NCBI GenBank assembly: GCA_963677595.1
Contig: OY782041.1
Location: 4,000,001 to 4,064,000, forward strand
DNA: 64,000 nucleotides
Source of the DNA: Spirochaetia bacterium
GTDB taxonomy: Bacteria; Spirochaetota; Spirochaetia; CAKZLE01
Direction of reading: 5' to 3'
Part shown: positions 21,648 through 61,105 of the stretch, piece by piece
How the letters are laid out: each line of letters opens with the position of its first letter
Numbering within the stretch: the first letter of the stretch is position 1
Program-made: the position numbers and the translations under genes
The notes under the pieces: generated by a model
The model's input: the letters and a program-made list of their open reading frames with translations, nothing else
Told to the model about the DNA's origin: nothing
Database searches by the model: none

Positions 21648-22223
21648 TCAGCCTGTCAGATGTGAGATAAGAATCCTGATCCCGATCCCGATCAATATGA
21701 CCCCTCCAAGTATCTCTATCCGGTTACTGAAGATGTCCCCGAATTTGCTGCCGATCCAGACACCGGCCAGTGAGAGGACGAAGGTGACGACCCCTATCAT
21801 GGCGGCACAGTAGAAGATATCGACATCCAGGACAGAGAAGGTGATCCCTACCGCCAGGGCGTCGATACTCGTGGCAATAGCCAGCACCAATATGACGAGG
21901 AGGCTCTCGTAATCCTGGTCCTTCTCCTTAGACTCATCTGCGAGGAAGGTTGATTCACCGATCATCTTTACCCCGATGAACAACAGCAGCCCGAAAGCAA
22001 CCCAGTGGTCAAACTGCTGTATATATGCACGGAAGGATGAGCCTGCCAGGTACCCGAGCAGGGGCATCACCGCCTGAAAGCCCCCGAAGAAGAGTGCTGT
22101 CCGTAAGGCACTGCGCAGTTTCAGTCTTTTTGCAACACAGCCGCTGGTGATCGAGACGGCAAATGCGTCCATCGCCAACCCGAATGCGATGACCAGTAAT
22201 GTGGTGTGGTCCATGTATCCCAA
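21648..22223 (-). CDS. mntP: Manganese efflux pump MntP
   Basis: GLAMDAFAVS, FGGFQAVMP, DHWVAF, ATSIDALAVG. Confidence 0.9.
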   Translation of the reverse strand: MGYMDHTTLLVIAFGLAMDAFAVSITSGCVAKRLKLRSALRTALFFGGFQAVMPLLGYLAGSSFRAYIQQFDHWVAFGLLLFIGVKMIGESTFLADESKEKDQDYESLLVILVLAIATSIDALAVGITFSVLDVDIFYCAAMIGVVTFVLSLAGVWIGSKFGDIFSNRIEILGGVILIGIGIRILISHLTG

Positions 22224-22364: not shown

Positions 22365-22436
22365 CACGTTATTTGGATTAATATCCTTCTGTTTTGACAC
22401 GTTATTTGGATTATTATCCATCTATTTTGACACGTT
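22365..22436. repeat. 33-bp imperfect tandem duplication (2 copies + 6 bp)
   Basis: CACGTTATTTGGATTAATATCCTTCTGTTTTGA / CACGTTATTTGGATTATTATCCATCTATTTTGA / CACGTT. Confidence 0.85.
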
Positions 22437-22438
22437 TT

Positions 22439-23212
22439 TTACTTTAACGCCAATTCCCACAGGACCAGTCCTGTCTCCAGGACCACCGTGAACCCGATCA
22501 GCAGGGCATCCCGCTTCCTGAAACGGATCTCCTTGACATAGGTCCTCTCCGATGCGAAACCGAAAGCCCGGCACTCCAGGGCATCGGCGGTACTCTCCGC
22601 CTTCCGCAAGCCGTTGATGAGGATGGTGAAGATGTAGCGCTGCCACAGGATGATGCGGTGCTTCAGGCTGGTCCCTGCAGCCCGTCCCCTGATGGCATGG
22701 GCTGCCTTGACTGACTCGACTTCCCGCTGGATGAGGGGAAGGAAGCGCAGGGCAAGGAAGACCGTGTAGGCGTAGCGGTAGGGCATGCCGGCCTTTACCA
22801 GGGACTGCATGAGGTCCCGGGTGTCCGTTGTCCAGATGAGGATGAAGCTTGCCAGCACCACCCCGGAGAGGCGGAAGAAGAACACAGGCCCCTGCTGCAG
22901 GCCATAGTCTGAGACCTTCAGGATGCCGAAGGACCAGACGGTCTCGCCCGGGTCGATGAGGAAGTGGAAGATCATGAGCAGGAAGCCCAAGCCGAAGACG
23001 ACCAGGCCGCTCTTCAGGATCTCCACAGGCCGCATCTTTCCCATGAACAGGGCCATCCCCAGGACGAAGAGAAAGACGATCATGCCGGAGAGCGGCTGCT
23101 TGAAGACGAACAGCCCCACGGCGATCAGGAAGACCCAGATGAGCTTCACCAAGGGGTAGACCCGGTTCAGTGAAGATCCCTTGTCCTTGTAACTCAGGTT
23201 ATGCTCAGCCAC
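22439..23212 (-). CDS. ECF transporter T component
   Basis: ALRFLPLI, AHAIRG, ALECRAF (conserved Arg motifs). Confidence 0.9.
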   Translation of the reverse strand: MAEHNLSYKDKGSSLNRVYPLVKLIWVFLIAVGLFVFKQPLSGMIVFLFVLGMALFMGKMRPVEILKSGLVVFGLGFLLMIFHFLIDPGETVWSFGILKVSDYGLQQGPVFFFRLSGVVLASFILIWTTDTRDLMQSLVKAGMPYRYAYTVFLALRFLPLIQREVESVKAAHAIRGRAAGTSLKHRIILWQRYIFTILINGLRKAESTADALECRAFGFASERTYVKEIRFRKRDALLIGFTVVLETGLVLWELALK

Positions 23213-24950
23213 GGGACACCTCCCTTCCCTCGAGCAGCAGGCTCATGAAGGATTCCGTGCTCGGTATATTTCCCTGGCAGGTAACGCCCCCCTCACCCAG
23301 AGCCTTGAGGATCTGGAAGAGCAGCGTTGGCTGCAGGCTTGCTGACCCCAGGATCTCTGCTTTGTCGAAGAGTTCGGTGGGATTACCATCGAAGTGCTTG
23401 AGTCCTTCGCTCATGACCACTACCCGGTCTGCGTATTCCGAGACCAGGCGCATATCGTGGCTGATCATGACCACGGCGATACCCCTGTCCCGGATCCCCT
23501 GCAGCAGATTCATCAGGGTTCGTGTCATCTCCCTATCCTGACCGTAGGTCGGCTCGTCCACGATGAGCACTTTTGGGTTCCCGACCAGCATGGTCGCCAC
23601 ACCCAGACGGCGCTTGTTCCCGGCACTCAAGGTAAAGGGATGCCTCCCCGCTTCCCCTGAGAGCCCCAGCTGTTCGAGCATCTTCTCTCGCTCCCCTGCC
23701 ATGAGCTCCGGATCGTTCATCCCCTTGGACTGGAGGCTGTAGTCTATCTCATCAGCCACAGTGTCGGTGAGGAACTGGTGCTCCGGGTTCTGGAACACCA
23801 GGGAAATATGGTTCGCCAGGTCGGGGACCTTCCATCTGCGGGAATCCTTCCCGAAGAGTTCCAGGGATCCCTCACGGCAGGTGTTCAGGCCGATGAGCAG
23901 TTTCGCCAGGGTACTCTTGCCCGCACCGTTACGTCCTACGATGGCCAGCATCTCCCCGGGATGGACGGCGATATCCACTCCCTTCAGGGCGTAGAGCCCT
24001 GCCCCATAGGAGTAGCGGATCGCTTTCCCGTCTATGAGAGGAGCAGTATCTTTCTGTACGGCAGCTGCCTCATTCCCAGAGAACACCGTCCCATCGGGTA
24101 CGAGGTCCAGGCTGCGAAGCAGCTCCAGTGCTTCGTTCACCCGGATGGGGATCCTCTCCACGGGGAAGCCCTGTCGACGAAGTCCCAGGCCGATCTCCAC
24201 CGTCTCCGGCAGCCAGACGCCCCGCTGTTCAAGGTCGTCGCCATGCTCAGACAGGATCCCGTAGGGCTCCCCGCTGTAGAGCAGCTTCCCCTCATCCAGG
24301 ACAAGGAGCTGGTCTGCCTCTGAGAGGAACTCGTCCAGTTCCCTGGTGACGAGCAGGACCGTCATGCCCTGCTCGCGCAGGGAGAGGATCAGTTCATGCA
24401 CCTGGGAGGTGGAAGCCGGGTCGAGGTTGGCGGTGGGCTCATCGAGGATGATGAGCTTGGGTTCCATGGCCAGGACAGAGGCCAGTCCCAGTTTCTGGAT
24501 CTGCCCGCCCGAGAGGTTCCAGACCAGGTTGTGGCGATAGGTCCCGATACCCGTCAACTCCAGGAGACGTTCCACGTTCTCCCGGATCTTATCCCTGCCC
24601 TGCAGGAGGTTCTCCGGCCCGAACGCGATCTCGTCCTCCACGGTCAGGGTGGCGAACATGGTCTCCGGGTCCTGGAATACCGAACCAACGCTGCAGGAGA
24701 TGTCCTTCATCTCAAGCTCAGCTGTGGATTGTCCTTCCAGGAGGACATCACCTGTCAGCTCGCCTTTCAGCAGATGGGGTATCCTCCCATCCAGGATCCG
24801 GCAAAGCGTAGATTTCCCGCTCCCTCCCGGTCCGACCAGGATGGTGAAGGTCCCCTGCTCCAGGGAGAGGGATATATCCTCCAGTACCGGGTCGTCCTTC
24901 CGGCGGAAGCGATAGCTCAGGTTCTTACATTCAATGAGGGAACGGGACAT
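23205..24950 (-). CDS. ECF transporter fused double ATPase
   Basis: Two ABC domains (GPGGSGKST, GRNGAGKST); FQDPE/FQNPEHQ; DEPTYGQD. Confidence 0.92.
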   Translation of the reverse strand: MSRSLIECKNLSYRFRRKDDPVLEDISLSLEQGTFTILVGPGGSGKSTLCRILDGRIPHLLKGELTGDVLLEGQSTAELEMKDISCSVGSVFQDPETMFATLTVEDEIAFGPENLLQGRDKIRENVERLLELTGIGTYRHNLVWNLSGGQIQKLGLASVLAMEPKLIILDEPTANLDPASTSQVHELILSLREQGMTVLLVTRELDEFLSEADQLLVLDEGKLLYSGEPYGILSEHGDDLEQRGVWLPETVEIGLGLRRQGFPVERIPIRVNEALELLRSLDLVPDGTVFSGNEAAAVQKDTAPLIDGKAIRYSYGAGLYALKGVDIAVHPGEMLAIVGRNGAGKSTLAKLLIGLNTCREGSLELFGKDSRRWKVPDLANHISLVFQNPEHQFLTDTVADEIDYSLQSKGMNDPELMAGEREKMLEQLGLSGEAGRHPFTLSAGNKRRLGVATMLVGNPKVLIVDEPTYGQDREMTRTLMNLLQGIRDRGIAVVMISHDMRLVSEYADRVVVMSEGLKHFDGNPTELFDKAEILGSASLQPTLLFQILKALGEGGVTCQGNIPSTESFMSLLLEGREVSRG

Positions 24951-24958
24951 AGCTTACC

Positions 24959-25594
24959 CTATTCAGCAGACCGGACAAGCCCGGTCTTCGCAACTTTCGT
25001 TGCAAGGAAATACCCCAGGAGACCTGAGAAGATCGCACCTGAGATCATATTGATGGGTACTGCCATCCAGACGTCCTTTGAGTAAGCCGGGTCCCAGCCA
25101 TAGAAGACGGAACTCCACAGGGTCCCGAACTGGGAAGAGGCAATACCTGCCATGATCGCTGTCACGACGCCAAACCGGCTGTATGCACAGATGAGGATGA
25201 CCGCCTCGATCGCGAGGCCCTGGGAGATACCCCAGCCGAGGGTCCCGATGCCGGCTGCATTGCCGAGCAGGACTTCCGTGGCTGCTTCGATGACACCGAA
25301 GGCCAGTGCGACACCAGGCTTCCTGACAAGGAATACCGCCAGGATGTAGGCCCACATGAACATCCCCTGGATCAATGCCCCGCCAAGAGGCCCGAGTGAG
25401 GTGTTTGCCAGGTACCAGAGGTTCCCGATACCGGTGTTGATAACTCCGGCGATGGCTGCAAGGACAGCGACGACTACCAGGTTCCGCGTGGAGTAGCCTC
25501 CCTGTTCCCGGTCGATCACTTTCTTGTCGGTGAAGCGCGCGATCAGTCCCAGGATGACGACGACCGCTACATTGAATGCAGTGTAGATTCCCAT
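24959..25594 (-). CDS. ECF transporter S component (YkoE-like)
   Basis: LVRKPGVAL...EVLLGN...QGLAIE pattern; extra N-terminal hydrophobic segment. Confidence 0.75.
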   Translation of the reverse strand: MGIYTAFNVAVVVILGLIARFTDKKVIDREQGGYSTRNLVVVAVLAAIAGVINTGIGNLWYLANTSLGPLGGALIQGMFMWAYILAVFLVRKPGVALAFGVIEAATEVLLGNAAGIGTLGWGISQGLAIEAVILICAYSRFGVVTAIMAGIASSQFGTLWSSVFYGWDPAYSKDVWMAVPINMISGAIFSGLLGYFLATKVAKTGLVRSAE

Positions 25595-25617
25595 ACTATT
25601 TCTCCCTTGTAATAGTT

Positions 25618-26988
25618 TTAAAGGGGCAGACCCAGCAGGGTCAGCTCCTTCTTTACTTCTTCATAGAGCACTTCCCACTCTGGGATGGGGGTAAGCGTCT
25701 CCTGTTCATAGGCATCCTCGAACGGAAGCCCGGGATTCCCCCCTTCCCGCTCGAAGACCTCTTCGTATTTCGGCAGGAGCTCTCCGATGATCCGGTCGGC
25801 CTCCTCCATTGTCATACCCGAGGCTGCAGCGGCATGTCCCACTTCTCCCATGAGGCGAACCTCCAGCCCCGTGCCGTGAGGCAGGCTGCCGTCTGCGGAA
25901 CCGACCCCTTCCAGATGGCCCCCGCTCACCGTGATGGCCAGGGCATTGGCAGCTACTTCGTAGAGGAGTTCCTTCGTCACAGCACCGCTCTTGGGGTAGA
26001 TATCGCAGACGATGTTCGCAGGGGCGTTACGTGCCATGGCCTGGCAGACCAGGCTCTGGAGCCACATGCACCCCCGTGCGGAGGTGGCGACATACCTGAT
26101 ATGGATGGGGTGGCACAGATGGTAATCAGCCAGGCAGACCACGTTGGCAGCCAGGAAGGAGGCGACCTGCACCAGGGCGGCCCCAGGGGCGTCACCGGCA
26201 AGGCCTCCTACCATGACCGTTGCCAGTGAAGCATTAGCCATACCGTAGTAGAGGGAATTTGCCGCCCGTACCAGGTTGCCGTTGTCTATCATGAGTTCAT
26301 TGAAGAGGGCGACGAGGTGTGCATCACAGGGGCGAAGCAACTCTGGATGGGTCGCTGCCAGATCCCCGATCTCAGTGACGCTGCTCTCCGCGGCGAGCAT
26401 GCCCATACCGGGCCTGCCCACCTCTTCACGGACTTCCCTCAGGTAGGTCAGTTCCCTACGGGATGCGATAACTTCCGTCACGGAGGCTGACTCAACCATC
26501 ATCCCGTCCACGTCGATGAGGGAACCGCAGGTGATCAGGTCCACGACCGGTTCCTTGGCCCAGCTCTTCACCGTGTTCTTGAATATCTTCTCAGGAGTGG
26601 GGACCCCGGGGTTCCCGGCCCAGACCGCAGGGGGACGGCTGTCCACTACTGTTCGGGGCACCAGCTCGAACCGGTCGGCCCCTTCCCCAAGGACGATAGC
26701 CCGGTTCATCCGTTCGATCCCCCGGTCGACCTCTTCCTCGGTCAGTCTCAGGACCTTCCCGGTGGAGAGGTTATAGATGCCGATGTCAAGGATCAGCTCC
26801 TTCCCGGCGGTGAAGATCCGGTCCGCCAGGTCCCCGTCATCGGGACAGATTCGGTTCTGATCCCAACGCAACTCATATTTCTCAACCAGGGCACGGACCT
26901 TGTCTATGATGAGGAAGTCCCAGTCTTCCTTCGAGAGACTCTGCCCGTTACCCATCCTGTCCATCAGGGCCAGGAACTGCTTTTCCAT
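25618..26988 (-). CDS. MtmB-family (monomethylamine methyltransferase-like) corrinoid methyltransferase, pyrrolysine-free
   Basis: GRPGMG, LFNELMID, GGLAG, PIHIRY, TGLEVRLMGEV and KELTLLGL match MtmB; RBS AGGAG before ATG 26988. Confidence 0.85.
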   Translation of the reverse strand: MEKQFLALMDRMGNGQSLSKEDWDFLIIDKVRALVEKYELRWDQNRICPDDGDLADRIFTAGKELILDIGIYNLSTGKVLRLTEEEVDRGIERMNRAIVLGEGADRFELVPRTVVDSRPPAVWAGNPGVPTPEKIFKNTVKSWAKEPVVDLITCGSLIDVDGMMVESASVTEVIASRRELTYLREVREEVGRPGMGMLAAESSVTEIGDLAATHPELLRPCDAHLVALFNELMIDNGNLVRAANSLYYGMANASLATVMVGGLAGDAPGAALVQVASFLAANVVCLADYHLCHPIHIRYVATSARGCMWLQSLVCQAMARNAPANIVCDIYPKSGAVTKELLYEVAANALAITVSGGHLEGVGSADGSLPHGTGLEVRLMGEVGHAAAASGMTMEEADRIIGELLPKYEEVFEREGGNPGLPFEDAYEQETLTPIPEWEVLYEEVKKELTLLGLPL

Positions 26989-27365
26989 AGCGATACTCCT
27001 CGACTCGCCGCCGGGGAAGAGTGGTATCATGTTGTTTAGGGGGTATTCCATGCAACAGTGATCCACAACCTGCCAGGCGTGTCTCATACTATTTCAGCAG
27101 TGCGACCCCGGTACCGTGTAGTACGATCAGGCTTCCCGTCCTCAATGTCTGCACATGGAATTTTCATAGGAAGATGACTATCTTGTCATCCTTGGATTAT
27201 TTTATGCAGAGAATCGGAAAAAACGCAAGGGACAGATTGGAGTCTGCCATGCATTTTACCTCTCCATTCGCACTATTCCCGGTGCTGGTCATGCGTTTGT
27301 ACGTATCACACCTCTTGAGTCGCCCCATGCTCTATGCTACATTCACAATCAGTATGGCAGATGGT

Positions 27366-34399: not shown

Positions 34400-35224
34400 C
34401 TATCTCATATCCTGTAAGAAGTCAATTGTTGTAAGCAGGATTGCACAAAGCTTTACCTCTACCTCTTTTCCTGTCTTTATTACTTCTGCATGACTCAGCG
34501 GCTTATCAAGAATACCTGCTGCCATATTGGTCACACAGGAGAATCCAACTACGTTCAAATCCAGGTAATTCGCTACTATCACTTCCGGGACTGTCGACAT
34601 ACCTACAAGGTCTGCTCCAAGTATTCCTGCCATCCGAATCTCAGCCGGAGTCTCATAACTGGGGCCATTGAATGCCATATACACTCCCTCTTGTAGCTCA
34701 TAACCCAATTTCTCAAGTATTCCAGCTTTAATCTTCATCCGCAACCTACGGTCATATGCATCACTTACGTCAGGGAATCTTGGACCATAGTTATCATCAT
34801 TTGCCCCTTTCAAAGGGTTATATCCCATATAATTGATATGGTCTTTAAGCATGATGATATCACCGGGCACATATCCCCTATTAACTGCTCCTGCTGCATT
34901 CGTCAAAATCACCTGCTTGACTCCAAGTGACTTCATGATTGCAATCGTTAGTACAATATCATCCTCATCGGTCCCCTCGTAAAAATGCGTTCGTCCTGCA
35001 AACACACACAAGTCATCATGTATCCTCATAACACCTGCATGCCCAGAAATCTTTCCGACATGCATCCCATCGATCTCACTGTACGGGATATCTACACCAT
35101 CGATGGTATGTAGTATAGAAGAGAGGCCTGAACCAAGTACTAACCCGGTCTTTGGTTGACAACTGCTTACCAGCCGTATTGCATCTACAGCTTTCTCTAC
35201 TCGTTCAAAAAAGTTTTCTTTCAT
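34400..35224 (-). CDS. punA: Purine nucleoside phosphorylase (trimeric PunA type)
   Basis: VLGSGL, GRTHFYEG, LTNAAG, GPSYETPAE, GMSTVPE, TNMAAG. Confidence 0.92.
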   Translation of the reverse strand: MKENFFERVEKAVDAIRLVSSCQPKTGLVLGSGLSSILHTIDGVDIPYSEIDGMHVGKISGHAGVMRIHDDLCVFAGRTHFYEGTDEDDIVLTIAIMKSLGVKQVILTNAAGAVNRGYVPGDIIMLKDHINYMGYNPLKGANDDNYGPRFPDVSDAYDRRLRMKIKAGILEKLGYELQEGVYMAFNGPSYETPAEIRMAGILGADLVGMSTVPEVIVANYLDLNVVGFSCVTNMAAGILDKPLSHAEVIKTGKEVEVKLCAILLTTIDFLQDMR

Positions 35225-35387
35225 GGTTCTTCCTTCTGAAAATGGGTATGAGATTATACCCAAAGTGCATATACAAACATTCCTGCGTGATCAGATTCAG
35301 ATCACCCAATGATCCTTATCAGAGATTATTCCCCTGTTGATTTTGCTGTGGTGCTTAGTATCCAAGCGCCTATGTATGAGAAACATT

Positions 35388-36722
35388 TCAATAATCGAGT
35401 CTTCCCATAAGCATAGCTCGTAAATCCTGTTCCACAGCCATAAAGGATTGGTCCCCAGCAAGATTGATCTGCTCATCCGGATCATGTACCATATTGAACA
35501 GCATATATGGCTCAAGATCCTGATTGAAGACGATTTTCCACTCCTCCGTCCTGATCATATATTCATGATTGAGTTCAGAGAGAACATGATCTCTTGGTAC
35601 GGTTGACAATGGATCCTGAGCATCACAGAACACACTCTCTCCCCCGCCGATACGGGTGATCATGGGTCCTATATCCATGAGCTCAGTCAACTGATGGGAT
35701 TCTTTAGGAACGGTCTTTCCTGGTAAGCGAACTATTAGGGGGATATGGACAGAAGATTCAAGGAAGTTCGATTTATAGAACCTATCTTGGTCCCCATTCA
35801 TCTCACCATGATCAGAAGTGAAGATTATTGCTGTATCTTCAAACTCTCCCCGTGCCTTCACAACGTCAATGATCTTGCCGATCTGTTCATCGATCAAGGT
35901 AATGTTCGCCGCGTAATTACGTCTGACTTCCTGTATATGCTCAGCCGTCGGTCGATCATAGGGAAGCGGTTGATCAAATGTTCCTGTAGCCCTATCAGGG
36001 TTGCTGTCAGTGAATCGGGGGATCGCATCCGGGAATGTGGTGTGCCTATATCGTTCCACATATTCATCAGGGGCATCCCAGGGCTCATGGGGCCCGCCGA
36101 ATCCGACAAAACAGAACCAGGGCTTTGAATCATGGTATGTCTCAAGATAAGAACAGGTCTCTCGCCCGACGTAGATATCAGGATACTCTTCCAGGGGGAG
36201 CACATGAGGCCGTACTGTCGCAGGTCCCTGTTCATATCGATCAGCATAATCGTCCTGAAGCTGTTTCCATAACCCCTTGCTCTGCCATCCTGCTGTCATA
36301 TGGGAGAGAATCGAAGTACTGACTCTCGGTCCGGGAATCTCGTTCACATCATCGAACCCATAGCTGTTCAGCAATGGTTCTGCCCTTCTCATATCGGGGA
36401 TTGACCCGTTATGGGGATACAAATGGACCTTCCCGATACAACTTGTATGGTACCCAAGCTTTTTCAGTTCCTGAACGTAATTAGGTGTATCTGGGGAGAG
36501 GGTATGAGGATCATTGTTCCATAACCCATTCTCATGGGGATACGTCCCCGTCATGAGAGCCAATCTGGCCGGTGCGCATAAGGGAGCATTCGAGTAGGCA
36601 TTGCAGAAAACCATTCCCTGCCGTGAAAGCCAATCGATGTTGGGGGTCTCTATGGGGTACCCTTGGAATCCAAACACGTTATACCGAAGCTGATCAAGCA
36701 TGATACACAGGATATTCATCAA
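35388..36722 (-). CDS. Cys-type sulfatase
   Basis: DQLR, CAPAR, GKVH, TSDHG. Confidence 0.9.
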   Translation of the reverse strand: MMNILCIMLDQLRYNVFGFQGYPIETPNIDWLSRQGMVFCNAYSNAPLCAPARLALMTGTYPHENGLWNNDPHTLSPDTPNYVQELKKLGYHTSCIGKVHLYPHNGSIPDMRRAEPLLNSYGFDDVNEIPGPRVSTSILSHMTAGWQSKGLWKQLQDDYADRYEQGPATVRPHVLPLEEYPDIYVGRETCSYLETYHDSKPWFCFVGFGGPHEPWDAPDEYVERYRHTTFPDAIPRFTDSNPDRATGTFDQPLPYDRPTAEHIQEVRRNYAANITLIDEQIGKIIDVVKARGEFEDTAIIFTSDHGEMNGDQDRFYKSNFLESSVHIPLIVRLPGKTVPKESHQLTELMDIGPMITRIGGGESVFCDAQDPLSTVPRDHVLSELNHEYMIRTEEWKIVFNQDLEPYMLFNMVHDPDEQINLAGDQSFMAVEQDLRAMLMGRLDY

Positions 36723-36725
36723 GTA

Positions 36726-37589
36726 TTACCCCTTGATCCCGCTCGAGGTCATTCCGGCAATATAGTACTTCTGCAGGAAAAGGAACAGAATGATGACCGG
36801 TATTGTCGAGAGAAGCGATGATGCGAAGATCAGCTCCCACTCGACACTCTGGTCTGTGAAGAGATTCGCTATCGCTACGGAGATCACCTGTTTATGCTCG
36901 TTCCTGATGATGATCAGAGGCCATACATAGGAATCCCAGGCAAGGAAGAACTTGATCAGCCCCCCACTGATGAGTGCCGGTACGATATTCGGGAACATGA
37001 CACTCCAGAACACTCGCTTATGGGAACACCCGTCGATAATCGCTGCATGATAGAGATCATATGGTACCTCTGCGAAATGGTTCGAGAACAGGAAGATCAG
37101 AAAAGCATCAGCTACCCAGGGAAGGAATAGCGCAACGAACGTATCACTCAAGCCCAATCCCTGCACTACCAGGAACGTAGGGATCATCCTTGCCTCGAAC
37201 GGTACAAGCATAGTGAACATGATGAGCAGGAAGATCGTTTTCCTGCCCGGGAAATCGAGCATCGATAGAACGAATGCCGTCATACTGCAGAAGATCATGG
37301 TTGTAGATACCGTAGCAGCTGACAATAATAGACTGTTGAATATATTCCGGTAAAACTCAAGATCAACGATGAGCCTGACAAAGTTGTCTACCGTCGGAGC
37401 AAGCGGGATGAATGTCTTCCAACTCATAGGTATCACAAAGGTGAAGAGTTCACTTCGCGTCTTGAAAGCTGAACCGATCATCCACAAGTATGGAAGCAGG
37501 AAGAGGATTGCCAGCAGTCCAAGACCAATCACCTTGAGCAGCGTATGGAAATACCTGTTTCCGGCAGCTTCTACTCGTATATTACTCAT
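36726..37589 (-). CDS. Carbohydrate ABC permease
   Basis: EAA-like loop AAIIDGC; FLFLQKYYIAG. Confidence 0.9.
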   Translation of the reverse strand: MSNIRVEAAGNRYFHTLLKVIGLGLLAILFLLPYLWMIGSAFKTRSELFTFVIPMSWKTFIPLAPTVDNFVRLIVDLEFYRNIFNSLLLSAATVSTTMIFCSMTAFVLSMLDFPGRKTIFLLIMFTMLVPFEARMIPTFLVVQGLGLSDTFVALFLPWVADAFLIFLFSNHFAEVPYDLYHAAIIDGCSHKRVFWSVMFPNIVPALISGGLIKFFLAWDSYVWPLIIIRNEHKQVISVAIANLFTDQSVEWELIFASSLLSTIPVIILFLFLQKYYIAGMTSSGIKG

Positions 37590-38542
37590 ATACTGCTCCT
37601 CCGATTCCTAGAGGTATAATATCGCTGCAGACCGGTGACTACTATCAGGATCAGAGCCAGGATGACCGACATGGCGGAAGCGTACCCCATCCGGTTGAAC
37701 GTGAATGCATACTCGTATATATGCATCACCACGACCCTGGTTGAGTCCACCGGGCCTCCCCCCGTGGTCAGGAGGATGGGACCGAAGACCTGGAAAGCCC
37801 GTATCGAAATCGTCATCAACAGGAACACTATAGTACGTTTGATCAACGGCAGGGTGATATAAATCTGCTGCTGCAGATAGCTCGCGCCATCAATCGTCGC
37901 CGCCTCATAGTACGAGGCGGGGATAGCGAACATCCCGGCAAGGAAGAAGAGCATCGTGAGCCCGACATTCTTCCAGACCGTGATTCCCACGATCGAATAG
38001 AGGGCCTGACCAGGACTGGTGAGGAACGGCTGGTGCGGGATCCCCACCAGCTGGAGCATAGCGTTAAACAAACCGTTCGTTGGATGCATCATCAGGCCGA
38101 GAATCGTGGTTATGACGACCATCGAGGTAACGACAGGCAGTAATATGAATGTCCGAAAGGCATCAGTCCATTTGTGTTTCCTGACCAGCAGGAGTGCCAG
38201 GAGGAACCCGAAGATCAGCTGTAATGGGACCCTCAGGAGGAAGTAGTTGACCGTCACCTTCAGGGAGTGGAGGAACTGCTGGTCTTTGAACGCGTTGACA
38301 TAGTTCTTCAATCCGAGAAACACCTTTTTCCCTGATATGAGGTTATAGGAATAGAGACTGTACTGTACTGCCTTGATGATGGGGACTAACTGGAATACGA
38401 TAAGCAGCAGGAGTGTCGGTATCGTGAAAAGCAGGATCGTCACTAACAGTTCTCTCTGCCCTGAACCGGGTATATAGGTGATTTTCTTCATTACACCATT
38501 CCTCTTGATTCTGTATAGCAGGGGCATGACGCCCCTGCTCAT
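37586..38542 (-). CDS. Carbohydrate ABC permease
   Basis: YEAATIDGAS, GGGPVDST, GYASAMS; start may be further downstream. Confidence 0.88.
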   Translation of the reverse strand: MSRGVMPLLYRIKRNGVMKKITYIPGSGQRELLVTILLFTIPTLLLLIVFQLVPIIKAVQYSLYSYNLISGKKVFLGLKNYVNAFKDQQFLHSLKVTVNYFLLRVPLQLIFGFLLALLLVRKHKWTDAFRTFILLPVVTSMVVITTILGLMMHPTNGLFNAMLQLVGIPHQPFLTSPGQALYSIVGITVWKNVGLTMLFFLAGMFAIPASYYEAATIDGASYLQQQIYITLPLIKRTIVFLLMTISIRAFQVFGPILLTTGGGPVDSTRVVVMHIYEYAFTFNRMGYASAMSVILALILIVVTGLQRYYTSRNRRSSI

Positions 38543-38557
38543 AGTCAGTCTGTACTA

Positions 38558-39856
38558 CTACTTGAACTGAGCCAGCTGAGATTCCAGCTGGTCGATCTTC
38601 TGTTTTACTGTTGATTCGACATCAGCCCCAAGCGCAAGGTCAGGATACAGGTTGAATCCCATGATCTGGTTATAGAGCACATACCCGGGAGTCAACGGCC
38701 TTGCCTCTCCATACGCATTCATGACCTCTACGAAGAATTTCTGGTAATCTTCCTGATAGTATTCCGGGTACTTGTCTGCGAAGTCGGTTCGTGAGACTAT
38801 ATCACTCCCGCCAATTGCATCAAAATAGAGTTTAATACCATCATCAGATCCCGCGAACTTGATAAAATCCTTGGCAAGCGTCTGATTCTTTGATTTCGCC
38901 GAGATTCCCATGGTGAAACCGCCGGTATGGACGATCGGCGTCTTGAAGAATGGAATCGGCATCAACCCCCATTCCGTCTCCGGGAACTTATTGTTGAATG
39001 TCGAAGCTGAAGACATGAAAGAGATCATGGTAATCGCCTGTCCTGTCCCGAAGGCATCAGGGACCTCAGCTGACGGAGCCAGTTCATAACGCGTGTAGAG
39101 ATCCTGGAAGAAATGATATGCTTCCATAGCCTCCGGAGTATCCCCGTATCCATGAACCGTCAGACCATCTTCTGAGATCGCCTTATAGGTGTTGGATCCC
39201 TTCTCCCCTGCACTTCTGATCATTGGCGTGATCCAGAAATCTCCCGTTCCCGGATTACTGAGAAACACAAGGCCCCAGACATCCTTTCCAGCCTGTTCCT
39301 TCACGACATCCTTCACTTTCTGGACATTGGTCAGCCATTCAGACCAGGTCCAAGGATGTTCGATATCAGGAGCGGTGATTCCCGCCATATCGAAATATGT
39401 CTTGTTATAGTACATTGCAGAGCATGCTTCTCGGAATGGGTAGGCATAGACTGATCCATTGTAGCTGACGGCTTCGATAGTTGATGCAAGGAACTGGCCC
39501 TTTTCGCTATCGGAAAGGATATCATCGATCGGGGCAAGCCCTCCGTAATAGGCATAGTTCCTGATATCAGTGGACCCTGTCGTGATGATATCATCCACAT
39601 CGTTAGAAGCCCACATAACCTGAAGCTGTTCTTTGTATTTTGCGAATGGCACTGACCTGATAGTGACAGTCACATCAGGGTTTTCGACCTGATACGCATC
39701 TGCAATTGCCTGGAACCCGTCAACCAACCCCGGGCTCTGCGGGAGGAAGAGTTTCAACTCCCCACCTGTCGCAGTCGCCTCTTCCTGGGATCCCCCCGCC
39801 CAAATGAATGAGATCCCAATGATCATAATCAGCAGCATAATCAATAATTTCTTCAT
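38558..39856 (-). CDS. Carbohydrate ABC substrate-binding protein (family 1)
   Basis: Signal MKKLLIM...WAGGSQE; MYYNKTYFDMAGI, PWTWSE. Confidence 0.88.
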   Translation of the reverse strand: MKKLLIMLLIMIIGISFIWAGGSQEEATATGGELKLFLPQSPGLVDGFQAIADAYQVENPDVTVTIRSVPFAKYKEQLQVMWASNDVDDIITTGSTDIRNYAYYGGLAPIDDILSDSEKGQFLASTIEAVSYNGSVYAYPFREACSAMYYNKTYFDMAGITAPDIEHPWTWSEWLTNVQKVKDVVKEQAGKDVWGLVFLSNPGTGDFWITPMIRSAGEKGSNTYKAISEDGLTVHGYGDTPEAMEAYHFFQDLYTRYELAPSAEVPDAFGTGQAITMISFMSSASTFNNKFPETEWGLMPIPFFKTPIVHTGGFTMGISAKSKNQTLAKDFIKFAGSDDGIKLYFDAIGGSDIVSRTDFADKYPEYYQEDYQKFFVEVMNAYGEARPLTPGYVLYNQIMGFNLYPDLALGADVESTVKQKIDQLESQLAQFK

Positions 39857-39954
39857 CTTACAACCCCTTATCTCTTGTAGAGTTACGCTGCAGAACGTGA
39901 AGGCCTTATACACTCCTGCAACTGTATGTGTCATTGTAGGGCACAATGCGAATC

Positions 39955-39976
39955 AAACAATGCCATGTGGCATGTT
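39955..39976. promoter_or_regulatory. Putative Crp/Fnr-family activator site (copy 1)
   Basis: AAACAATGCCATGTGGCATGTT, identical to 43766-43787; minus-strand -10 TACAAT at 39938-39933. Confidence 0.7.
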
Positions 39977-40079
39977 CATACCATTCTTTGAAAAAACTTT
40001 CCGATCTCCGTTTCAGCTATACGACCTGCAGGTAGCATACTCTGAGAGAATAAACTGGTAATTGGTGTGAAGTGACCTG

Positions 40080-40808
40080 TCATATTTGATCGAACAGATC
40101 TTCTTCGCGCTTCAAGAAGCCCGAGATACGCTCCATCTGCACTGCAGAGATGGTGATCTTTTTCTTGATGATGGATGCCATATCACGATCGACTAATTCC
40201 CTGCAAAGGCGGTACATGGTCCTGATGCTCATTCCGAGTTCCTGACAGATGGCTTCCCTGGTCTCTTTCACGATTATGACTTCCGCAGGTTGAACCTTCC
40301 TTCCATATTGCTGATAAATAAAGTTAACCAGTGAATAGTATCCACTGTAGACAACCATCTTTCCATGAGAATTGATGGACGGGTACAGTTGCTGTGCGAA
40401 GATCCTTACCAGCTTCTTTAGGGCATGAGAATCTTCATCGAGCCAGCGGGAAAGGACACTCTTCCTGATCCTGATATACGAGGACTTTTCTGCTGCTTCG
40501 ATCGTAGTAGTGGCTATGGAGTACCCAGAGAAGAATTCCAACAAGCCGCTGAGAGACCGGCCGCTCCTATTGGTACTACGGGTTGAGGAGAACTCGAACA
40601 CCCTGCCATTGTTGAACTCATTGATGACCCGGTTGTTACCAGCATACAGAATATAGACAAAGGGGTTCTCTGTCCCTTTCGTGATGATCTTATGTCCTGC
40701 CGGGACGGTAATCAGTTCCAGCTGGGCAATGAAGCGTCTGGGCATGTCAGCAAATAGGTCCTGTAGCCATTGATTCGTTTCGATAACCTGCTTCACACTC
40801 ATTTCCAT
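40080..40808 (-). CDS. Crp/Fnr-family transcriptional regulator
   Basis: cNMP-like N-terminal domain; HTH TREAICQELGMSIRTMYR. Confidence 0.85.
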   Translation of the reverse strand: MEMSVKQVIETNQWLQDLFADMPRRFIAQLELITVPAGHKIITKGTENPFVYILYAGNNRVINEFNNGRVFEFSSTRSTNRSGRSLSGLLEFFSGYSIATTTIEAAEKSSYIRIRKSVLSRWLDEDSHALKKLVRIFAQQLYPSINSHGKMVVYSGYYSLVNFIYQQYGRKVQPAEVIIVKETREAICQELGMSIRTMYRLCRELVDRDMASIIKKKITISAVQMERISGFLKREEDLFDQI

Positions 40809-40841
40809 ACCGCTTGTCTCCTCTTGTGGGCAGTATACAAT

Positions 40842-42323
40842 CTAACCATCCAAAAGAGCCATACCTTCACTATCACCAAGCTGCTCAAGCTCGTCTCCTA
40901 GCATCCTCCGAAAAGGCTCTGCCAGTTCTTCATCATCTTTCAGGTTATGCAGTTCGTAGGGATCCCGCTCTAAATCATAGAGTTCAGAAATATCATCCTC
41001 ATTCACAGTATACTTATGCGTACCGGTAATCAGGGTCCTGCTCATACAGGTATCGCGGTACCCCTGCCCGTAACTCTCAAGCATCATCTGTGTCCTGCCG
41101 GGTCTCTCAAGTCGGCATACGGGAAGGAGGCTCTCCCCGTCAATCGGTTGTGAGAACGTGATCCTGGCAGCATCAAGGATGGTCGGGGCGATATCGATCG
41201 AATTCACGAGATTGTTCATCCTGCTGCCGCCGTACTCATTCCGGGGCAGTTTCAGAGCCAACGGGATACGCACAGTCTCCTCTGTCATGAATGAGCCTTT
41301 ATCGAATATCCCCCCATGACTACCGAGTCCATCTCCGTGATCACTGGTCCATATGATCAATGTATCTTCATACATGCCGAGTTCTTTCAGTTTCTGGATG
41401 ACCAATCTGGCAGCATCATCTGTCATGGTGGTCTGTGCATAGGCCTTCACCATGATGTCACGCCACTCTTCCCATGAGAAGATACTCGGGATAATCAACT
41501 TGAACTGTTCATCTGCAATCGGCCTGTTCATGTTCCGATAGGTCCCTGGTTTGTTCGAGAGATCATCTGAGAAATTACCATATTCCCTTATCTGAGAAGC
41601 ATCATACATATCGACGAATTCCTGAGTTGGAAAATAGGGTTGATGCGGACCCCATAGATCCAGTCTCAAGTGGAATGGCCCCTGACCATCCTCACGGGCT
41701 AGCTGTTCCAACTGCCTGCAGGCCATATCAGCCAGGAAGTATCCCTCATGTGTCTCTTTCGGTGTGGTCGTGATGCCTACACACGGTTCTCCACACCAGG
41801 TATGAGTACAATGATAATGGTCATTGCCTTCATAGAGTTCCCGAAACTGCTTCTTTGATGAGTTGTTCCAGAAATATCTCTCGATGCTGTGCTCGGCAGG
41901 GGGAAGTCCCTTACGTCCTATGTACTCCTTATATTCTTCAGTGATATAAGGATTCCCATAGAACTCTGGACAGAATCCTTCTGCATGATGATCCAGAGCT
42001 GTTCCGGGACCCGCATGCCATTTCCCGAAATAGAAATTCCTGTATCCAGCTTCCGAGAGCTTATCAAGATAGATCTCGTGATCATAGGGAGATTCCGTCT
42101 GGTTGTGAATATTCCGATGATGGTGAGGATAGAGCCCTGTTAGCAGAGTCCTCCGTGCCGGCCCGCACAGGGGAGTGACCGCATAAGCACGTTCGAAGAG
42201 AACAGAATCCTTCGCCAGTGCATCAAAACCCGGGTGCAGCGGCTTTTCGCCGCCATCCCAACCATGTCGATAATGGAGCTGATGATCTGTTACGATCATC
42301 ACGATATTTGGTTTCCTATTCAC
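40842..42323 (-). CDS. Cys-type sulfatase
   Basis: KPNIVMIVTD, CGPARRTLLTG, GKWH, TSDHG. Confidence 0.92.
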   Translation of the reverse strand: MNRKPNIVMIVTDHQLHYRHGWDGGEKPLHPGFDALAKDSVLFERAYAVTPLCGPARRTLLTGLYPHHHRNIHNQTESPYDHEIYLDKLSEAGYRNFYFGKWHAGPGTALDHHAEGFCPEFYGNPYITEEYKEYIGRKGLPPAEHSIERYFWNNSSKKQFRELYEGNDHYHCTHTWCGEPCVGITTTPKETHEGYFLADMACRQLEQLAREDGQGPFHLRLDLWGPHQPYFPTQEFVDMYDASQIREYGNFSDDLSNKPGTYRNMNRPIADEQFKLIIPSIFSWEEWRDIMVKAYAQTTMTDDAARLVIQKLKELGMYEDTLIIWTSDHGDGLGSHGGIFDKGSFMTEETVRIPLALKLPRNEYGGSRMNNLVNSIDIAPTILDAARITFSQPIDGESLLPVCRLERPGRTQMMLESYGQGYRDTCMSRTLITGTHKYTVNEDDISELYDLERDPYELHNLKDDEELAEPFRRMLGDELEQLGDSEGMALLDG

Positions 42324-42335
42324 ATCACTCCCCTG

Positions 42336-43715
42336 TTATTCCTTCCATGCCTCTAACACATTATACTCAGGAAGTTCAGAAATCATATTGATTCCATCAA
42401 ACTTCTCTGACGTATATAAGGAGAAGAATGCTTTGATCCGTTGCTGGAGCTCCTGTTTGATCTCTTGGTACTCAGATTCATGATAGAAGTTTTGAACCTC
42501 GTCCGGATCACGCACAAGGTCCGTTAATAGGGATTTCCCTTCGTCAGGGAACTCTATCAGTTTATATCGGTTGGTCTTTACCATCCTGACTGGACCATAC
42601 TCCCCAAAGTGAATATCCTCCCATGTGCTGGCGTCTCCCTGATTCGTGACAAGGGATAGGAAACTCCTGCCTGGGTATGTGCAGTTTTCCGGGCACCTGA
42701 TCCCAGCAGCGTCGAGGATAGTCTGGAAGAGATCTGTATGATTGACGAATTGGCTTCTTCTCTGTCTGTTGAAGAGCCTGTCAGGGCTATACAGGATCAT
42801 CGGGACACGGATTGACTGTTCAAGCATGTTCACCGGGTAGGTGGCATTCCCTTTACCCCACAGTCCATGATCCCCGCAGTTCAGCCCGTGATCTGATGTA
42901 TAGATGATGATGGTATTCTCTAATAACCCCTGGCCTTCCAATTCATCAAGAATGGTTCCTACTGATTCATCGATCTGGGTTACTGCTGCATAATACTGGC
43001 AGAGCGCCTCGACAGGATCTTTGCGTGTATCATCAAGCGACTCGTTCCTCTGGATCCCGAACGGGTAATGCACGCTGTTGTCCCGAGATGATACACCTTT
43101 ATCACGATACATATTCACCAGCCGCTCAGGATGATTCCGCCACTGGCTATGTGTTGCATAATGGCCGATGGTCAGGAAGAAAGGCTTCTCAGTCTCCCGG
43201 GATCTCAGGAATGTTACAGCTTCATTCGTGATGGTCCTCGTCAAAGGTCCCTCACAGGTCACGGGTTCTGCCCCCCGATAGAACGTCCTTGGTCCCCCAT
43301 GGTTGATGGGATATGCCGTACCTATGGAAAATGAGTAATCAAATCCGGTTTTCGGTATCAGTTCCTGGCCAAGATGCCACTTCCCGATGAGAGCAGTCTG
43401 GTAGGAGTGCTGCTTGAATATCTCCTGAAGAGTCAGCTCATCCTTCATCCAGTACTTGTTATCATCACGGTCAGGAGTATTCCCAAGATAGTCATGGACC
43501 CCATGCTGTGATGCGTACCGTCCAGAAAATAAACATGCTCGTGCTGGGGAACAAACAGGCGTCGGAGTGAACGCATTCTCCATGACAACACCCTGGTCAG
43601 CCAAGTAATCAAGATTTGGCGTCTCCACAAACGCATCTCCATAACAACTATTTGCCCACGCGGCATGATCATCAGTCACAAATAGTACAATATTCGGTTG
43701 TTCTTGCATAAACAC
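42336..43715 (-). CDS. Cys-type sulfatase
   Basis: QPNIVLFVTDD, CSPARACLFSG, GKWHLG, TSDHG. Confidence 0.92.
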   Translation of the reverse strand: MFMQEQPNIVLFVTDDHAAWANSCYGDAFVETPNLDYLADQGVVMENAFTPTPVCSPARACLFSGRYASQHGVHDYLGNTPDRDDNKYWMKDELTLQEIFKQHSYQTALIGKWHLGQELIPKTGFDYSFSIGTAYPINHGGPRTFYRGAEPVTCEGPLTRTITNEAVTFLRSRETEKPFFLTIGHYATHSQWRNHPERLVNMYRDKGVSSRDNSVHYPFGIQRNESLDDTRKDPVEALCQYYAAVTQIDESVGTILDELEGQGLLENTIIIYTSDHGLNCGDHGLWGKGNATYPVNMLEQSIRVPMILYSPDRLFNRQRRSQFVNHTDLFQTILDAAGIRCPENCTYPGRSFLSLVTNQGDASTWEDIHFGEYGPVRMVKTNRYKLIEFPDEGKSLLTDLVRDPDEVQNFYHESEYQEIKQELQQRIKAFFSLYTSEKFDGINMISELPEYNVLEAWKE

Positions 43716-59433: not shown

Positions 59434-59460
59434 CTGAGTAAACTTGACCGGGTGATAACA

Positions 59461-60411
59461 ATGACGAAGGAAACCAAAACGAACCTAAGGAACCGAGACC
59501 AGGCATTCATCTTCAAGATTGATAGATATGCAACTCATGATGGTCCCGGGATCAGAACTACTATCTTCTTTAAAGGCTGTCTGATGAACTGCACATGGTG
59601 CTCCAATCCTGAGAGCCAGAAGACAACAGCTGAGCTTGGTTTCCTCAAGATGAAGTGTGTTGGCTGTGGCACCTGTATCAACAGCTGCCATGCCGATGCT
59701 CTTTCCCTGAAAGATGAAAAAGCGACCATTAATAGGGAACTGTGCGATAACTGCTTCGACTGTGTGCCAGTGTGTCCATCAAACGCACTGCAGATCTATG
59801 GCTACGAGGCTACTTTACCGGAATTAATGGATATCTTGAATCGAGATAGGCACATCTACCGTCGTTCCGGCGGTGGTGTGACCTTGACCGGTGGCGAACC
59901 GACTCTGCAGTATTCTTTCGTGAAAAAATTGCTGGAAGAATGCAGGCGGGTCGGAATCCATACAACGTTGGAAACTTGCGGGTTCTCGAGTCCAGAAGAT
60001 TTCAAGCAGTTATTACCCTATGTTAACTGGTTATATTTTGATCTGAAGCATTGTGACCCGGATCACCATCGAAAGGTAACAGGGAACTCAAACAAGATCA
60101 TCTTGCAGAATCTTACCTTTGCATCCCACTACATGCAGGAACATGGCAAACCTCTGGTAGTCAGACAAGTTGTTGTTCCTGGAATTAATGATACTCAGTG
60201 GATCGGCAGGATGGTTGAGCTGATTAGTCAGTTACCCTATGTGACAGCCATGGAGTTTTTACCATACCATAATTATGGTATGGACAAGTATGCCGCTATC
60301 GGGAAGGTGTACGATCTCACGGATGTAAGACCTCCCGCAGAATCAGACCTGAAAACATATGTTGAAATGGCAGAAGCCAGAGGTCTGAAATGTACTATTG
60401 GAGGACTGTAG
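59461..60411 (+). CDS. GRE activating enzyme (radical SAM with ferredoxin-like insert)
   Basis: HDGPGIRT, GCLMNCTWCSNPE, two CxxCxxCxxxC motifs, GGEP; start may be GTG 59452. Confidence 0.93.
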   Translation: MTKETKTNLRNRDQAFIFKIDRYATHDGPGIRTTIFFKGCLMNCTWCSNPESQKTTAELGFLKMKCVGCGTCINSCHADALSLKDEKATINRELCDNCFDCVPVCPSNALQIYGYEATLPELMDILNRDRHIYRRSGGGVTLTGGEPTLQYSFVKKLLEECRRVGIHTTLETCGFSSPEDFKQLLPYVNWLYFDLKHCDPDHHRKVTGNSNKIILQNLTFASHYMQEHGKPLVVRQVVVPGINDTQWIGRMVELISQLPYVTAMEFLPYHNYGMDKYAAIGKVYDLTDVRPPAESDLKTYVEMAEARGLKCTIGGL

Positions 60412-60463
60412 AGTAGATGAATCAATAGAACCAATAGTATAAAAAAACAAATAGGAGACAATA

Positions 60464-61105
60464 ATGAGTGATATTAAAAAGGCAACCAGTGCGCCTGTAG
60501 TAATGTTTATAATAGCTATTCTGGCATTCGTAGATGGAATTAACCTGCTCGGTTTCTTACCACCAGAAACAACACTTCTCCGAGGAGTCTTCGCAACCCT
60601 AGCCTATCCTACATATTATTTTGCAGCAAAGAACCACCTAGAAATCGGTGATGAGCTTTTTGCCAGGACGTTCTTATTCTTTGGATTATTCTTCTCTTTG
60701 ACAGGAATCATCATGCTGGTACAAATGTTCGCAACAATGGCAGGCATCCCCTATGATACCAAGATGATGGGCGTGGTATGGTTTGTAGTAGTTCTTTATC
60801 TGCTATCTGTAATGCCTGCATTCTGGTATGGCGATAAGGTCTGCCTGCTGTTCATGATCACTGCAACACTCGGCTTCCTGATAATGTCAATCGTCAACTT
60901 CCAGTTCAGTTTTAGCTTTTGGCCAGGATTTTTCGTCATTGCCGGGATTTCCTTCTCAATTACCGGTCTAACTGCTGCGTATTTCGGGATGTTCCTCATG
61001 CTGGTCCCTCTCGGAGTTGTTCTGCCATTAGGAAAACCAATCTTCAAAAAGAAAGAAACCGTTTCTGCAGGTTCAGTAAAAATAGCAACGTCGGAAGAAA
61101 TCTGA
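60464..61105 (+). CDS. Six-TM protein, SatP/GPR1-FUN34-YaaH (or AmiS/UreI)-like channel
   Basis: About 6 TM; ATSAPVVMF resembles NPAPLGL; C-terminal LPLGKP. Confidence 0.55.
   Translation: MSDIKKATSAPVVMFIIAILAFVDGINLLGFLPPETTLLRGVFATLAYPTYYFAAKNHLEIGDELFARTFLFFGLFFSLTGIIMLVQMFATMAGIPYDTKMMGVVWFVVVLYLLSVMPAFWYGDKVCLLFMITATLGFLIMSIVNFQFSFSFWPGFFVIAGISFSITGLTAAYFGMFLMLVPLGVVLPLGKPIFKKKETVSAGSVKIATSEEI

What the first reader, a model, noticed from the sequence alone, without database searches (positions are those of the whole stretch)
22439..26988. Pyrrolysine-free MtmB homolog co-transcribed with a dedicated YkoE-like ECF importer
Seen: the MtmB-like ORF reads GRPGMGM-L-AAESS, with Leu codon CTC (26395-26397) where methanogen MtmB has the amber-coded pyrrolysine (GRPGMGV-O-GPETS). 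It is followed directly by S, AA' and T components, and no corrinoid protein or activase is in the window. Known: non-Pyl members of the MttB family demethylate quaternary amines (e.g. MtgB, glycine betaine); ECF importers scavenge micronutrients. I know of no characterised non-Pyl MtmB. Inference: an undescribed uptake plus (de)methylation pathway for a trace N-methyl compound or vitamin-like molecule.
Basis: partly seen in the sequence, partly recalled or inferred. Interest (0 to 1): 0.75.

Follow-up and report, generated by a model that had tools for sequence, protein, structure and literature searches.

The report
Riboswitch-led B12 demethylase with swappable importer
A spirochaete-like bacterium places a pyrrolysine-free relative of the methanogens' methylamine enzyme directly in front of a vitamin-type importer and behind a conserved leader, predicted to fold as an RNA and matching no catalogued family, and the genes beside its relatives suggest a likely oxygen-free, B12-dependent way of stripping a methyl group from an imported purine base.

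Summary
Observation confirmed. The gene (26988-25618) is an MtmB-family protein with Leu where MtmB has pyrrolysine, followed by YkoE-like S, fused ATPase and T genes. The link is conserved: 59 of 65 loci found with the S component carry this MtmB clade. Two first-reader points need correcting. A pyrrolysine-free MtmB is now characterised (MtqB, 2026). Corrinoid proteins and activases exist elsewhere in this genome and beside many relatives. In other members the ECF is replaced by a purine-base-type BMP ABC importer or a UraA-fold-like permease, and three unrelated adenine deaminases were recruited nearby. The likely substrate is therefore a methylated purine (about 50%; untested). New here is a roughly 55-80 nt leader (27165-27084): 17 distinct copies, a near-invariant core, 5 of 11 pairs with compensatory changes, and no Rfam match. 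It heads both mtmB-ECF and mtmB-permease operons and is a riboswitch candidate.

The parts
27084..27165 (-). Conserved structured leader, riboswitch candidate; stems span about 27154-27100, near-invariant 20-nt core 27147-27128
   Evidence: 17 distinct copies; 98.4% of cells paired, 5 of 11 pairs with two-sided changes; core identity 0.99 vs 3' flank 0.32; no meaningful Rfam hit
25618..26988 (-). Pyrrolysine-free MtmB-family corrinoid methyltransferase (substrate-specific MT1), 456 aa
   Evidence: PF05369; 1L2Q alignment; model TM 0.95 to MtmB
26395..26397 (-). CTC (Leu198) at the pyrrolysine position; Leu in 65 of 65 clade sequences
24959..25594 (-). Group I ECF S component, YkoE-like; keeps E107 and Q125 (YkoE E77, Q95), has F79 for W49, Q76 for Y46 and S/T161 for D131
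23205..24950 (-). Fused double ECF ATPase (AA')
   Evidence: TIGR04520 and TIGR04521 above cut-off
22439..23212 (-). ECF T component
   Evidence: PF02361

Best explanation
The locus encodes a pyrrolysine-free MtmB-fold protein and a YkoE-type ECF importer behind a conserved leader predicted to fold as an RNA; the importer likely brings in an N-methylated purine base (most likely a methyladenine from RNA or DNA turnover), and the enzyme likely hands its methyl group to a B12 protein encoded elsewhere in the genome. Shown: fold, Leu at the Pyl site, gene order, conserved linkage, interchange of three transporter types within one enzyme clade, a covarying leader. Inferred steps: (1) the S component captures an aminopyrimidine-edged heterocycle with E107/Q125/F79, and AA'T imports it. 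(2) The enzyme binds it in the barrel, where clade-invariant W123, N126, C154, H293, D329 and E360 would stack and protonate the ring so that Co(I) attacks the methyl group directly, as non-Pyl MttB and MtqB enzymes do with cationic donors. (3) A corrinoid protein in trans (C1:301.9 kb or C1:417.5 kb), reactivated by RACE, passes the methyl group to an MtaA-like enzyme or MetH; relatives use homocysteine- or THF-methyltransferases. (4) The freed adenine is salvaged or deaminated to hypoxanthine. (5) The leader RNA would sense the substrate or product and set expression, taking the place of the GntR/UTRA repressor found in other lineages.
For: Linkage: 59 of 65 loci found with an S-component alignment carry clade mtmB; 4 of the other 6 have under 250 bp upstream. 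One enzyme clade (at least 52% identity to ours, next relatives at most 40%) sits with ECF 39, BMP ABC 8, permease 5, none 4 of 56 de-duplicated loci. BMP and permease members fall at several places among ECF members in the tree, and barrel-strand residues are invariant or nearly so across all three types. In L212 and L213 the same leader and a 70-72% identical mtmB are followed by the permease instead of the ECF. The best solved relatives of two BMP proteins are 3S99 and AtzT, which hold adenine and guanine (PMC6834077, passages). Adenine deaminases above the TIGR01178 cut-off lie within 6 kb in 5 of 56 loci, including one ECF locus (L118). Three representatives are only 38-44% identical to each other, so likely separately recruited. 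The genome's second MtmB paralogue sits in a BMP-RACE-corrinoid-Mo-hydroxylase-MtaA cluster. The YkoE pyrimidine-binding residues are kept and the thiazole-binding ones are not.
Against: No assay, ligand or expression data exist. Adenine deaminase is near only 5 of 56 loci and none of the 14 leader-bearing ones. The permease's family is weakly fixed: no Pfam hit, no BLAST match to the genome's own putative AzgA-type permease (E 0.098; label from my reading of its sequence), a low-confidence model (pLDDT 52) whose weak hits are SLC26/BicA before UraA/UapA, and one Atlas cluster named AGZA-family. BMP matches to purine binders are distant, and that family binds other ligands. One sub-branch (4 of 56) is co-oriented with pseudouridine-glycosidase-like, PfkB, SIS and BtpA genes, which points elsewhere. 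L113 has the S component with an MttB-family gene instead. Pocket residues were read from strand positions; model coordinates could not be inspected. The loci are related and enriched for ECF by the way they were collected. The single leader folds no better than its shuffles (z -1.4 and +0.5).
Confidence: 0.5

Rival explanations
1. The substrate is a methylated pyrimidine, C-nucleoside or thiamine/HMP-like compound (for example a methylpseudouridine or a methylated aminopyrimidine), and the module rescues a vitamin moiety or nucleoside.
For: The S component is YkoE-like with the pyrimidine-binding Glu/Gln kept. A PsuG-like (PF04227) + PfkB + SIS + BtpA cluster is co-oriented upstream in 4 of 56 loci. 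ECF importers mostly carry vitamins (established knowledge).
Against: No TPP or other known riboswitch reached the gathering score in the 39 loci scanned, although the genome has a TPP riboswitch elsewhere. The thiazole-binding Y46 and D131 are replaced. The PsuG cluster is one sub-branch. The adenine deaminase and purine-type BMP links are not explained.
Confidence: 0.17
2. The donor is an S-methyl adenine derivative (5'-methylthioadenosine or 2-methylthioadenine), and the methyl group feeds methionine synthesis.
For: It fits adenine-type importers and deaminases. Homocysteine S-methyltransferase domains lie nearby in 2 of 56 loci, one with an IF-2B/MtnA-like gene (L134). This genome has only MetH as a pterin-binding methyltransferase and MtaA-like partners.
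Against: Thioether methyl groups are poor donors without metal activation (established chemistry). The family's known activities are on N-methyl groups. The homocysteine link is rare.
Confidence: 0.12
3. It works like MtqB: a quaternary amine (choline, tetramethylammonium or similar) is imported and demethylated.
For: The only characterised non-Pyl MtmB uses these donors (PMC13044021).
Against: No BCCT, OpuABC-type or choline genes turned up among the neighbour proteins annotated (a selection of those near the clade genes). A high-affinity ECF with purine-type substitutes fits a scarce heterocycle. No MttB and no PylS domain was found in the genome to process released trimethylamine.
Confidence: 0.1
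4. The enzyme simply uses monomethylamine, released when a deaminase acts on imported N6-methyladenine.
For: MtqB has low monomethylamine activity (11 vs 37-42 nmol/min/mg). Deaminases sit nearby in some loci.
Against: Pyl is absent, and the positions of MtmB Glu229 and Glu259 are Leu225 (65 of 65) and Thr/Cys257 (their catalytic role is recalled, one search found no paper). The deaminases pass the canonical adenine deaminase cut-off. The ECF pocket suits a ring, not methylamine.
Confidence: 0.06

Closest known systems
MtmB monomethylamine:corrinoid methyltransferase, Methanosarcina barkeri (PDB 1NTH/1L2Q, PF05369)
   Same: Same fold along the full length (TM 0.95), 30% identity, same GRPGMG loop
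   Different: Leu for Pyl202, Leu and Thr at the Glu229 and Glu259 positions; bacterial; no corrinoid gene beside it here; tied to an importer and an RNA leader
MtqB/MtqC tetramethylammonium/choline methyltransferase, Methanococcoides methylutens Q3c (PMC13044021)
   Same: Non-Pyl MtmB-family MT1 shown to methylate cob(I)alamin
   Different: MtqB sits next to its corrinoid gene in a methanogen; that paper's main text has no occurrence of purine, adenine, ECF or transporter; sequence relation to this clade not testable
YkoEDC group I ECF thiamine importer, Bacillus subtilis (PDB 5EDL, PMC5037267)
   Same: S - fused AA' - T order; PF09819; E77 and Q95 equivalents invariant
   Different: W49 to F, Y46 to Q, D131 to S/T; extra N-terminal segment; no TPP riboswitch; linked to a methyltransferase
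mlp gene clusters (MGCs; PMC10418091)
   Same: The genome's candidate partner clusters hold a corrinoid protein, RACE and an MtaA/UroD-family protein with no THF methyltransferase
   Different: Type 1 MGCs hold at least two Mlp types and no MtmB is mentioned in the version read; orthology not tested

Membership tests
MtmB family (PF05369) | Profile match above cut-off and MtmB fold | tested here: met
   318 bits vs 25; TM 0.95
Pyl-dependent monomethylamine methyltransferase MtmB | In-frame amber codon/pyrrolysine at 202 and Pyl machinery | tested here: not met
   CTC/Leu; no PylS N-terminal domain found in the 95% complete genome
Pyl-dependent monomethylamine methyltransferase MtmB | Active-site Glu229 and Glu259 (role recalled) | tested here: not met
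   Leu225 and Thr/Cys257 at these alignment positions
MtqB clade | Groups with MtqB; Met/Cys/aromatic pocket; adjacent MtqC | not testable with these tools
   MtqB sequence not retrievable; the supplement search gave only a legend. No adjacent corrinoid gene here
Corrinoid methyltransferase system (MT1, corrinoid protein, RACE, MT2) | Partner genes present | tested here: met
   In trans in this genome; adjacent corrinoid in 16 and RACE in 7 of 56 clade loci
Corrinoid methyltransferase system (MT1, corrinoid protein, RACE, MT2) | Methyl transfer to Co(I) | not testable with these tools
   needs an assay
Group I ECF importer | S, A, A', T in one operon | tested here: met
YkoE thiamine importer | Thiamine-binding residues W49, E77, Q95, Y46, D131 | tested here: not met
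   2 of 5 identical, W49 to F, Y46 and D131 replaced (numbering offset of 2 inferred from the alignment)
YkoE thiamine importer | TPP riboswitch in the leader | tested here: not met
   no Rfam TPP hit; the same family rings elsewhere in the genome
Riboswitch | Non-coding 5' location, conserved core, covarying stems | tested here: met
   15 of 19 pattern hits lie about 160-210 nt upstream of clade mtmB; 5 of 11 pairs change on both sides
Riboswitch | Clear expression platform | tested here: inconclusive
   Stems covering the ribosome-binding site fold in several leaders but weakly and without controls; no terminator-like site between the motif and the start codon
Riboswitch | Ligand binding and gene control | not testable with these tools
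   needs in-line probing and a reporter
NCS2/AzgA nucleobase permease (substitute transporter in relatives) | Profile or structure match | tested here: inconclusive
   No Pfam hit; Atlas neighbours AGZA-named and PF00860 at 0.90; weak UraA/SLC26-fold hits from a poor model

The most novel reading that the evidence does not exclude
A new riboswitch class that senses a methylated purine controls the first anaerobic, B12-dependent nucleobase N-demethylase together with the first ECF importer for a modified nucleobase: a salvage route for the methylated bases that RNA and DNA turnover release, spread over spirochaetes, Anaerolineae and gut Lachnospiraceae.
Probability: 0.25. Interest if true: 0.9.

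Novelty: new variant of a known kind. Interest (0 to 1): 0.7.

Why it matters
Most of the roughly 1,000 MtmB-family proteins lack pyrrolysine and have no known substrate (PMC13044021). How anaerobes remove N-methyl groups from modified bases without oxygenases is, to my knowledge, open. This module offers three independent handles on one ligand: an S component that can be purified with its cargo, an enzyme with a simple cob(I)alamin assay, and a 60-nt RNA that can be probed. A positive result would name a new ECF substrate class, a new activity of a family present in gut Blautia and Robinsoniella, and possibly a new riboswitch class.

Tried and rejected
Longer start at 27087: rejected because close homologues begin at the MEKQ ATG and the extension overlaps the leader. 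Leader peptide: the short ATG..TGA in our leader is missing in other copies. Known RNA families: Rfam gave only chance-level hits. Resemblances to TPP, c-di-GMP-I and SAM-I cores were noticed from memory only and not supported by those searches. DNA operator reading: the core is not palindromic and its flanks covary as stems; not excluded. Motif outside spirochaete-type leaders: none within 400 bp upstream of other clade genes (best 6 mismatches of 20), none in viral contigs; one weak model hit in G726 (E 0.037) was not followed up. An outer stem from the 5' A/U-rich arm appears in about half of the 12 leaders by a crude script and may overlap a -10 box; not claimed. Expression: no RNA holder listed. 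Clostridia sample: 3 of 400 scored genomes had a match, one genome unscored. Anaerolineae-class sample: S component in 2 of 301. The permease structure was too poor to fix its family. Literature searches returned no paper linking a non-Pyl MtmB to purines, ECF or an RNA motif; one search was swamped by sigma-factor papers and is uninformative. No complex prediction was run.
Full report
OBSERVATION. The minus-strand ORF 26988..25618 (456 aa) is PF05369 MtmB. Against 1L2Q/1NTH it aligns over the whole length (E 9e-59), and Leu198, codon CTC at 26397-26395, stands in the pyrrolysine column. A model from a 62-sequence alignment (pLDDT 96) matches MtmB at TM 0.95; MttB-family structures follow at about 0.5. 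S (PF09819, YkoE 5EDL E 1e-15), fused AA' and T genes follow at 23 bp, 8 bp and an 8-bp overlap. Co-transcription is inferred from spacing. The closest named relatives are Spirochaetaceae/Spirochaetales records.

PARTNERS IN THE GENOME. The 4.33-Mb genome (95% complete) has no MttB match and no PylS N-terminal domain match. It has two RACE activases, each with a stand-alone corrinoid protein and an MtaA/UroD-family protein. One cluster (C1:411-426 kb) also holds a second non-Pyl MtmB paralogue (28% identical), a BMP ABC importer, DUF1638 and a xanthine-dehydrogenase-family Mo enzyme (TIGR03313 above cut-off). The other (C1:298-305 kb) has no MtmB or MttB of its own and is the obvious candidate partner in trans (inference). 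The only pterin-binding match is a 1210-aa MetH-like frame, so a stand-alone methyl-THF methyltransferase was not found. FTHFS and an adenine deaminase are present. In five relatives RACE was found in 5 of 5, and in five leader-bearing genomes B12-binding cap domains in 5 of 5.

LINKAGE. From the transporter side: a scan of metagenomes with an alignment of 25 S components returned 65 loci. 59 carry a clade mtmB beside S. Four of the remaining six have under 250 bp upstream, L113 has an MttB-family gene plus corrinoid gene instead, and L158 has neither (the L159 row comes). From the enzyme side the picture differs: of 19 genome loci, 2 have the ECF, 8 a BMP ABC importer, 4 a 517-aa permease, 4 none of these, and 1 is cut off. 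Pooling all full-length clade loci and merging those at 97% identity or more leaves 56 of 69 (the window itself not counted): S 39, BMP 8, permease 5, none 4; corrinoid gene nearby 16, RACE 7, GntR-type regulator 12, adenine deaminase 5, PsuG-like 4, homocysteine methyltransferase 2, leader RNA 14. This pool is enriched for ECF by construction and its members are kin.

ONE CLADE, PROBABLY ONE REACTION. Among 193 aligned family members, 65 are at least 52% identical to ours and the next is 40%. Leu198, T153, C154, H224, L225, E231, N252, L255 and H293 were invariant in the 59 members with an assigned transporter; W123, N126 and D329 differ in one of them each, and E360 in none. W123, N126, T153, C154, H293 and E360 are rare outside the clade. 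These lie on or just after barrel strands. I could not inspect coordinates, so calling them pocket residues is inference. BMP-linked and permease-linked members arise at more than one place among ECF-linked ones (FastTree, several weak nodes). The positions of MtmB Glu229 and Glu259 hold Leu and Thr/Cys; their catalytic role is recalled, and one search found no paper.

SUBSTRATE POINTERS. For a purine: the two BMP proteins tested match 3S99 and AtzT best (E about 1e-34 to 1e-38), and AtzT binds guanine (110 nM) and adenine (2.5 uM) while 3S99 has adenine modelled (PMC6834077, passages). Adenine deaminases above the equivalog cut-off flank permease, BMP and ECF versions, and three representatives are 38-44% identical to each other. 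The S component keeps YkoE's pyrimidine-binding Glu and Gln and an aromatic residue, and loses both thiazole contacts (PMC5037267, passages). Against, or neutral: the deaminase is near only 5 of 56 loci; the permease family is weakly fixed; one sub-branch is joined to PsuG-like, PfkB, SIS and BtpA genes; methyl acceptors vary (homocysteine, THF or MtaA-type). Which methylpurine cannot be told. Ring-N-methylated adenines that are easily protonated are the better methyl donors on chemical grounds (established chemistry, not tested).

LEADER RNA. Aligning leaders showed a block shared by the window, L001, L017 and L019 but not L002. A model from 8 copies found only those 8 in the 65 sources searched, then 4 new copies in the 65 S-scan loci. 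A 20-nt pattern with up to 2 mismatches hit 19 of 401 genomes of the class (the backwards control hit 2). 15 of the 19, including all 13 exact hits, lie about 160-210 nt upstream of clade mtmB; the other 4 have no mtmB downstream and by eye lack the stems. Five of the 15 were new. Over 17 distinct copies, 98.4% of cells pair and 5 of 11 pairs show two-sided changes; sliding the partners drops pairing to 18-61%. The structure was derived from the first 12 copies and the copies are related, so this is supportive, not a significance test. Core identity is 0.99 against 0.32 in the 3' flank and 0.37 at third codon positions of conserved Ala/Gly/Pro/Thr/Val in 8 mtmB genes. The predicted form is an outer stem, a variable hairpin and between them an invariant stretch that may form a short hairpin. 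Single-sequence folding is unremarkable. It is single-copy in this genome. None of the 14 leader-bearing loci has a GntR-type or corrinoid gene nearby, which fits a regulator that replaced the repressor. In L212 and L213 the leader (one core change) precedes mtmB plus the permease, not the ECF: regulator and enzyme stay while the importer is swapped. Rfam has no match, and no known riboswitch reached its gathering score in 39 loci scanned (only tRNAs, T-boxes, an S4 leader and one sRNA elsewhere in them).

WHAT IS KNOWN. MtqB is the first characterised non-Pyl MtmB (PMC13044021; I read the abstract, Results, Discussion, the supplement list and one term search in both supplements). It uses QMA, choline and weakly MMA, and the paper leaves the other non-Pyl clades without function. 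PMC9768040 (passages) notes another non-Pyl MtmB of unknown role. PMC10418091 (abstract, first part of Results) describes corrinoid/RACE/MtaA-like clusters. The bioRxiv paper 10.1101/2020.03.09.984617 (passages) added nothing. Searches found no paper tying this family to purines, ECF import or an RNA motif. The library lacks most subscription journals, and I did not search RNA-motif supplements, so the motif may be listed somewhere. Earlier notes of this scan proposed the methylated-purine reading and the ECF link on other DNA. My reading was noted before I saw them, and they are not independent evidence. A look-up with the leader sequence returned nothing.

VERDICT. A real, conserved import-and-demethylation module of a known enzyme family with an unassigned substrate (system about 0.9; methylated purine about 0.5), plus a structured cis-element (real RNA element about 0.8; ligand-sensing riboswitch about 0.45). 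New variant of a known kind; interest 0.70.

Noticed in passing
G000:C1:411-426 kb (L028 3639-18412): Second non-Pyl MtmB paralogue in an operon with BMP ABC importer, RACE, corrinoid protein, DUF1638, xanthine-dehydrogenase-family Mo enzyme and MtaA-like protein; similar clusters in L088-L092. Its pocket positions differ from the window's clade, so probably another substrate.
   Followed up: partly
G000:C1:298-305 kb (L029 8510-15643): RACE, AraC regulator, corrinoid protein, MtaA-like protein, CobW-like GTPase with no MtmB/MttB nearby; candidate partner in trans.
   Followed up: partly
G000 whole genome: 23 URO-D/MtaA-family matches in one 4.3-Mb genome.
   Followed up: no
L113 2465-7678: The same S-AA'-T importer lies near a divergent MttB-family gene and corrinoid gene instead of mtmB.
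   Followed up: no
L106, L112, L116, L123, L154 upstream of mtmB: PsuG-like glycosidase, PfkB kinase, SIS and BtpA genes co-oriented with mtmB-ECF in one sub-branch (L154 shows BtpA only).
   Followed up: partly
family f16 genomes of the same phylum: 16 of 17 genomes carry MtmB-family genes, up to 6 matches each, some in tandem.
   Followed up: no
window 22365-22440: 33-bp tandem repeat, 2.3 copies, right after the T-component stop codon.
   Followed up: no
window 56995-61105: Glycyl-radical enzyme (PFL-like, 812 aa) with radical-SAM activase behind a sigma-54 activator; substrate not examined.
   Followed up: no
window 34400-43715: Three sulfatases with a sugar-type ABC importer and a nucleoside phosphorylase on the minus strand.
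   Followed up: no
window 21648-22223: MntP manganese efflux gene 216 bp downstream of the T gene, same strand; not seen at this place in relatives.
   Followed up: no
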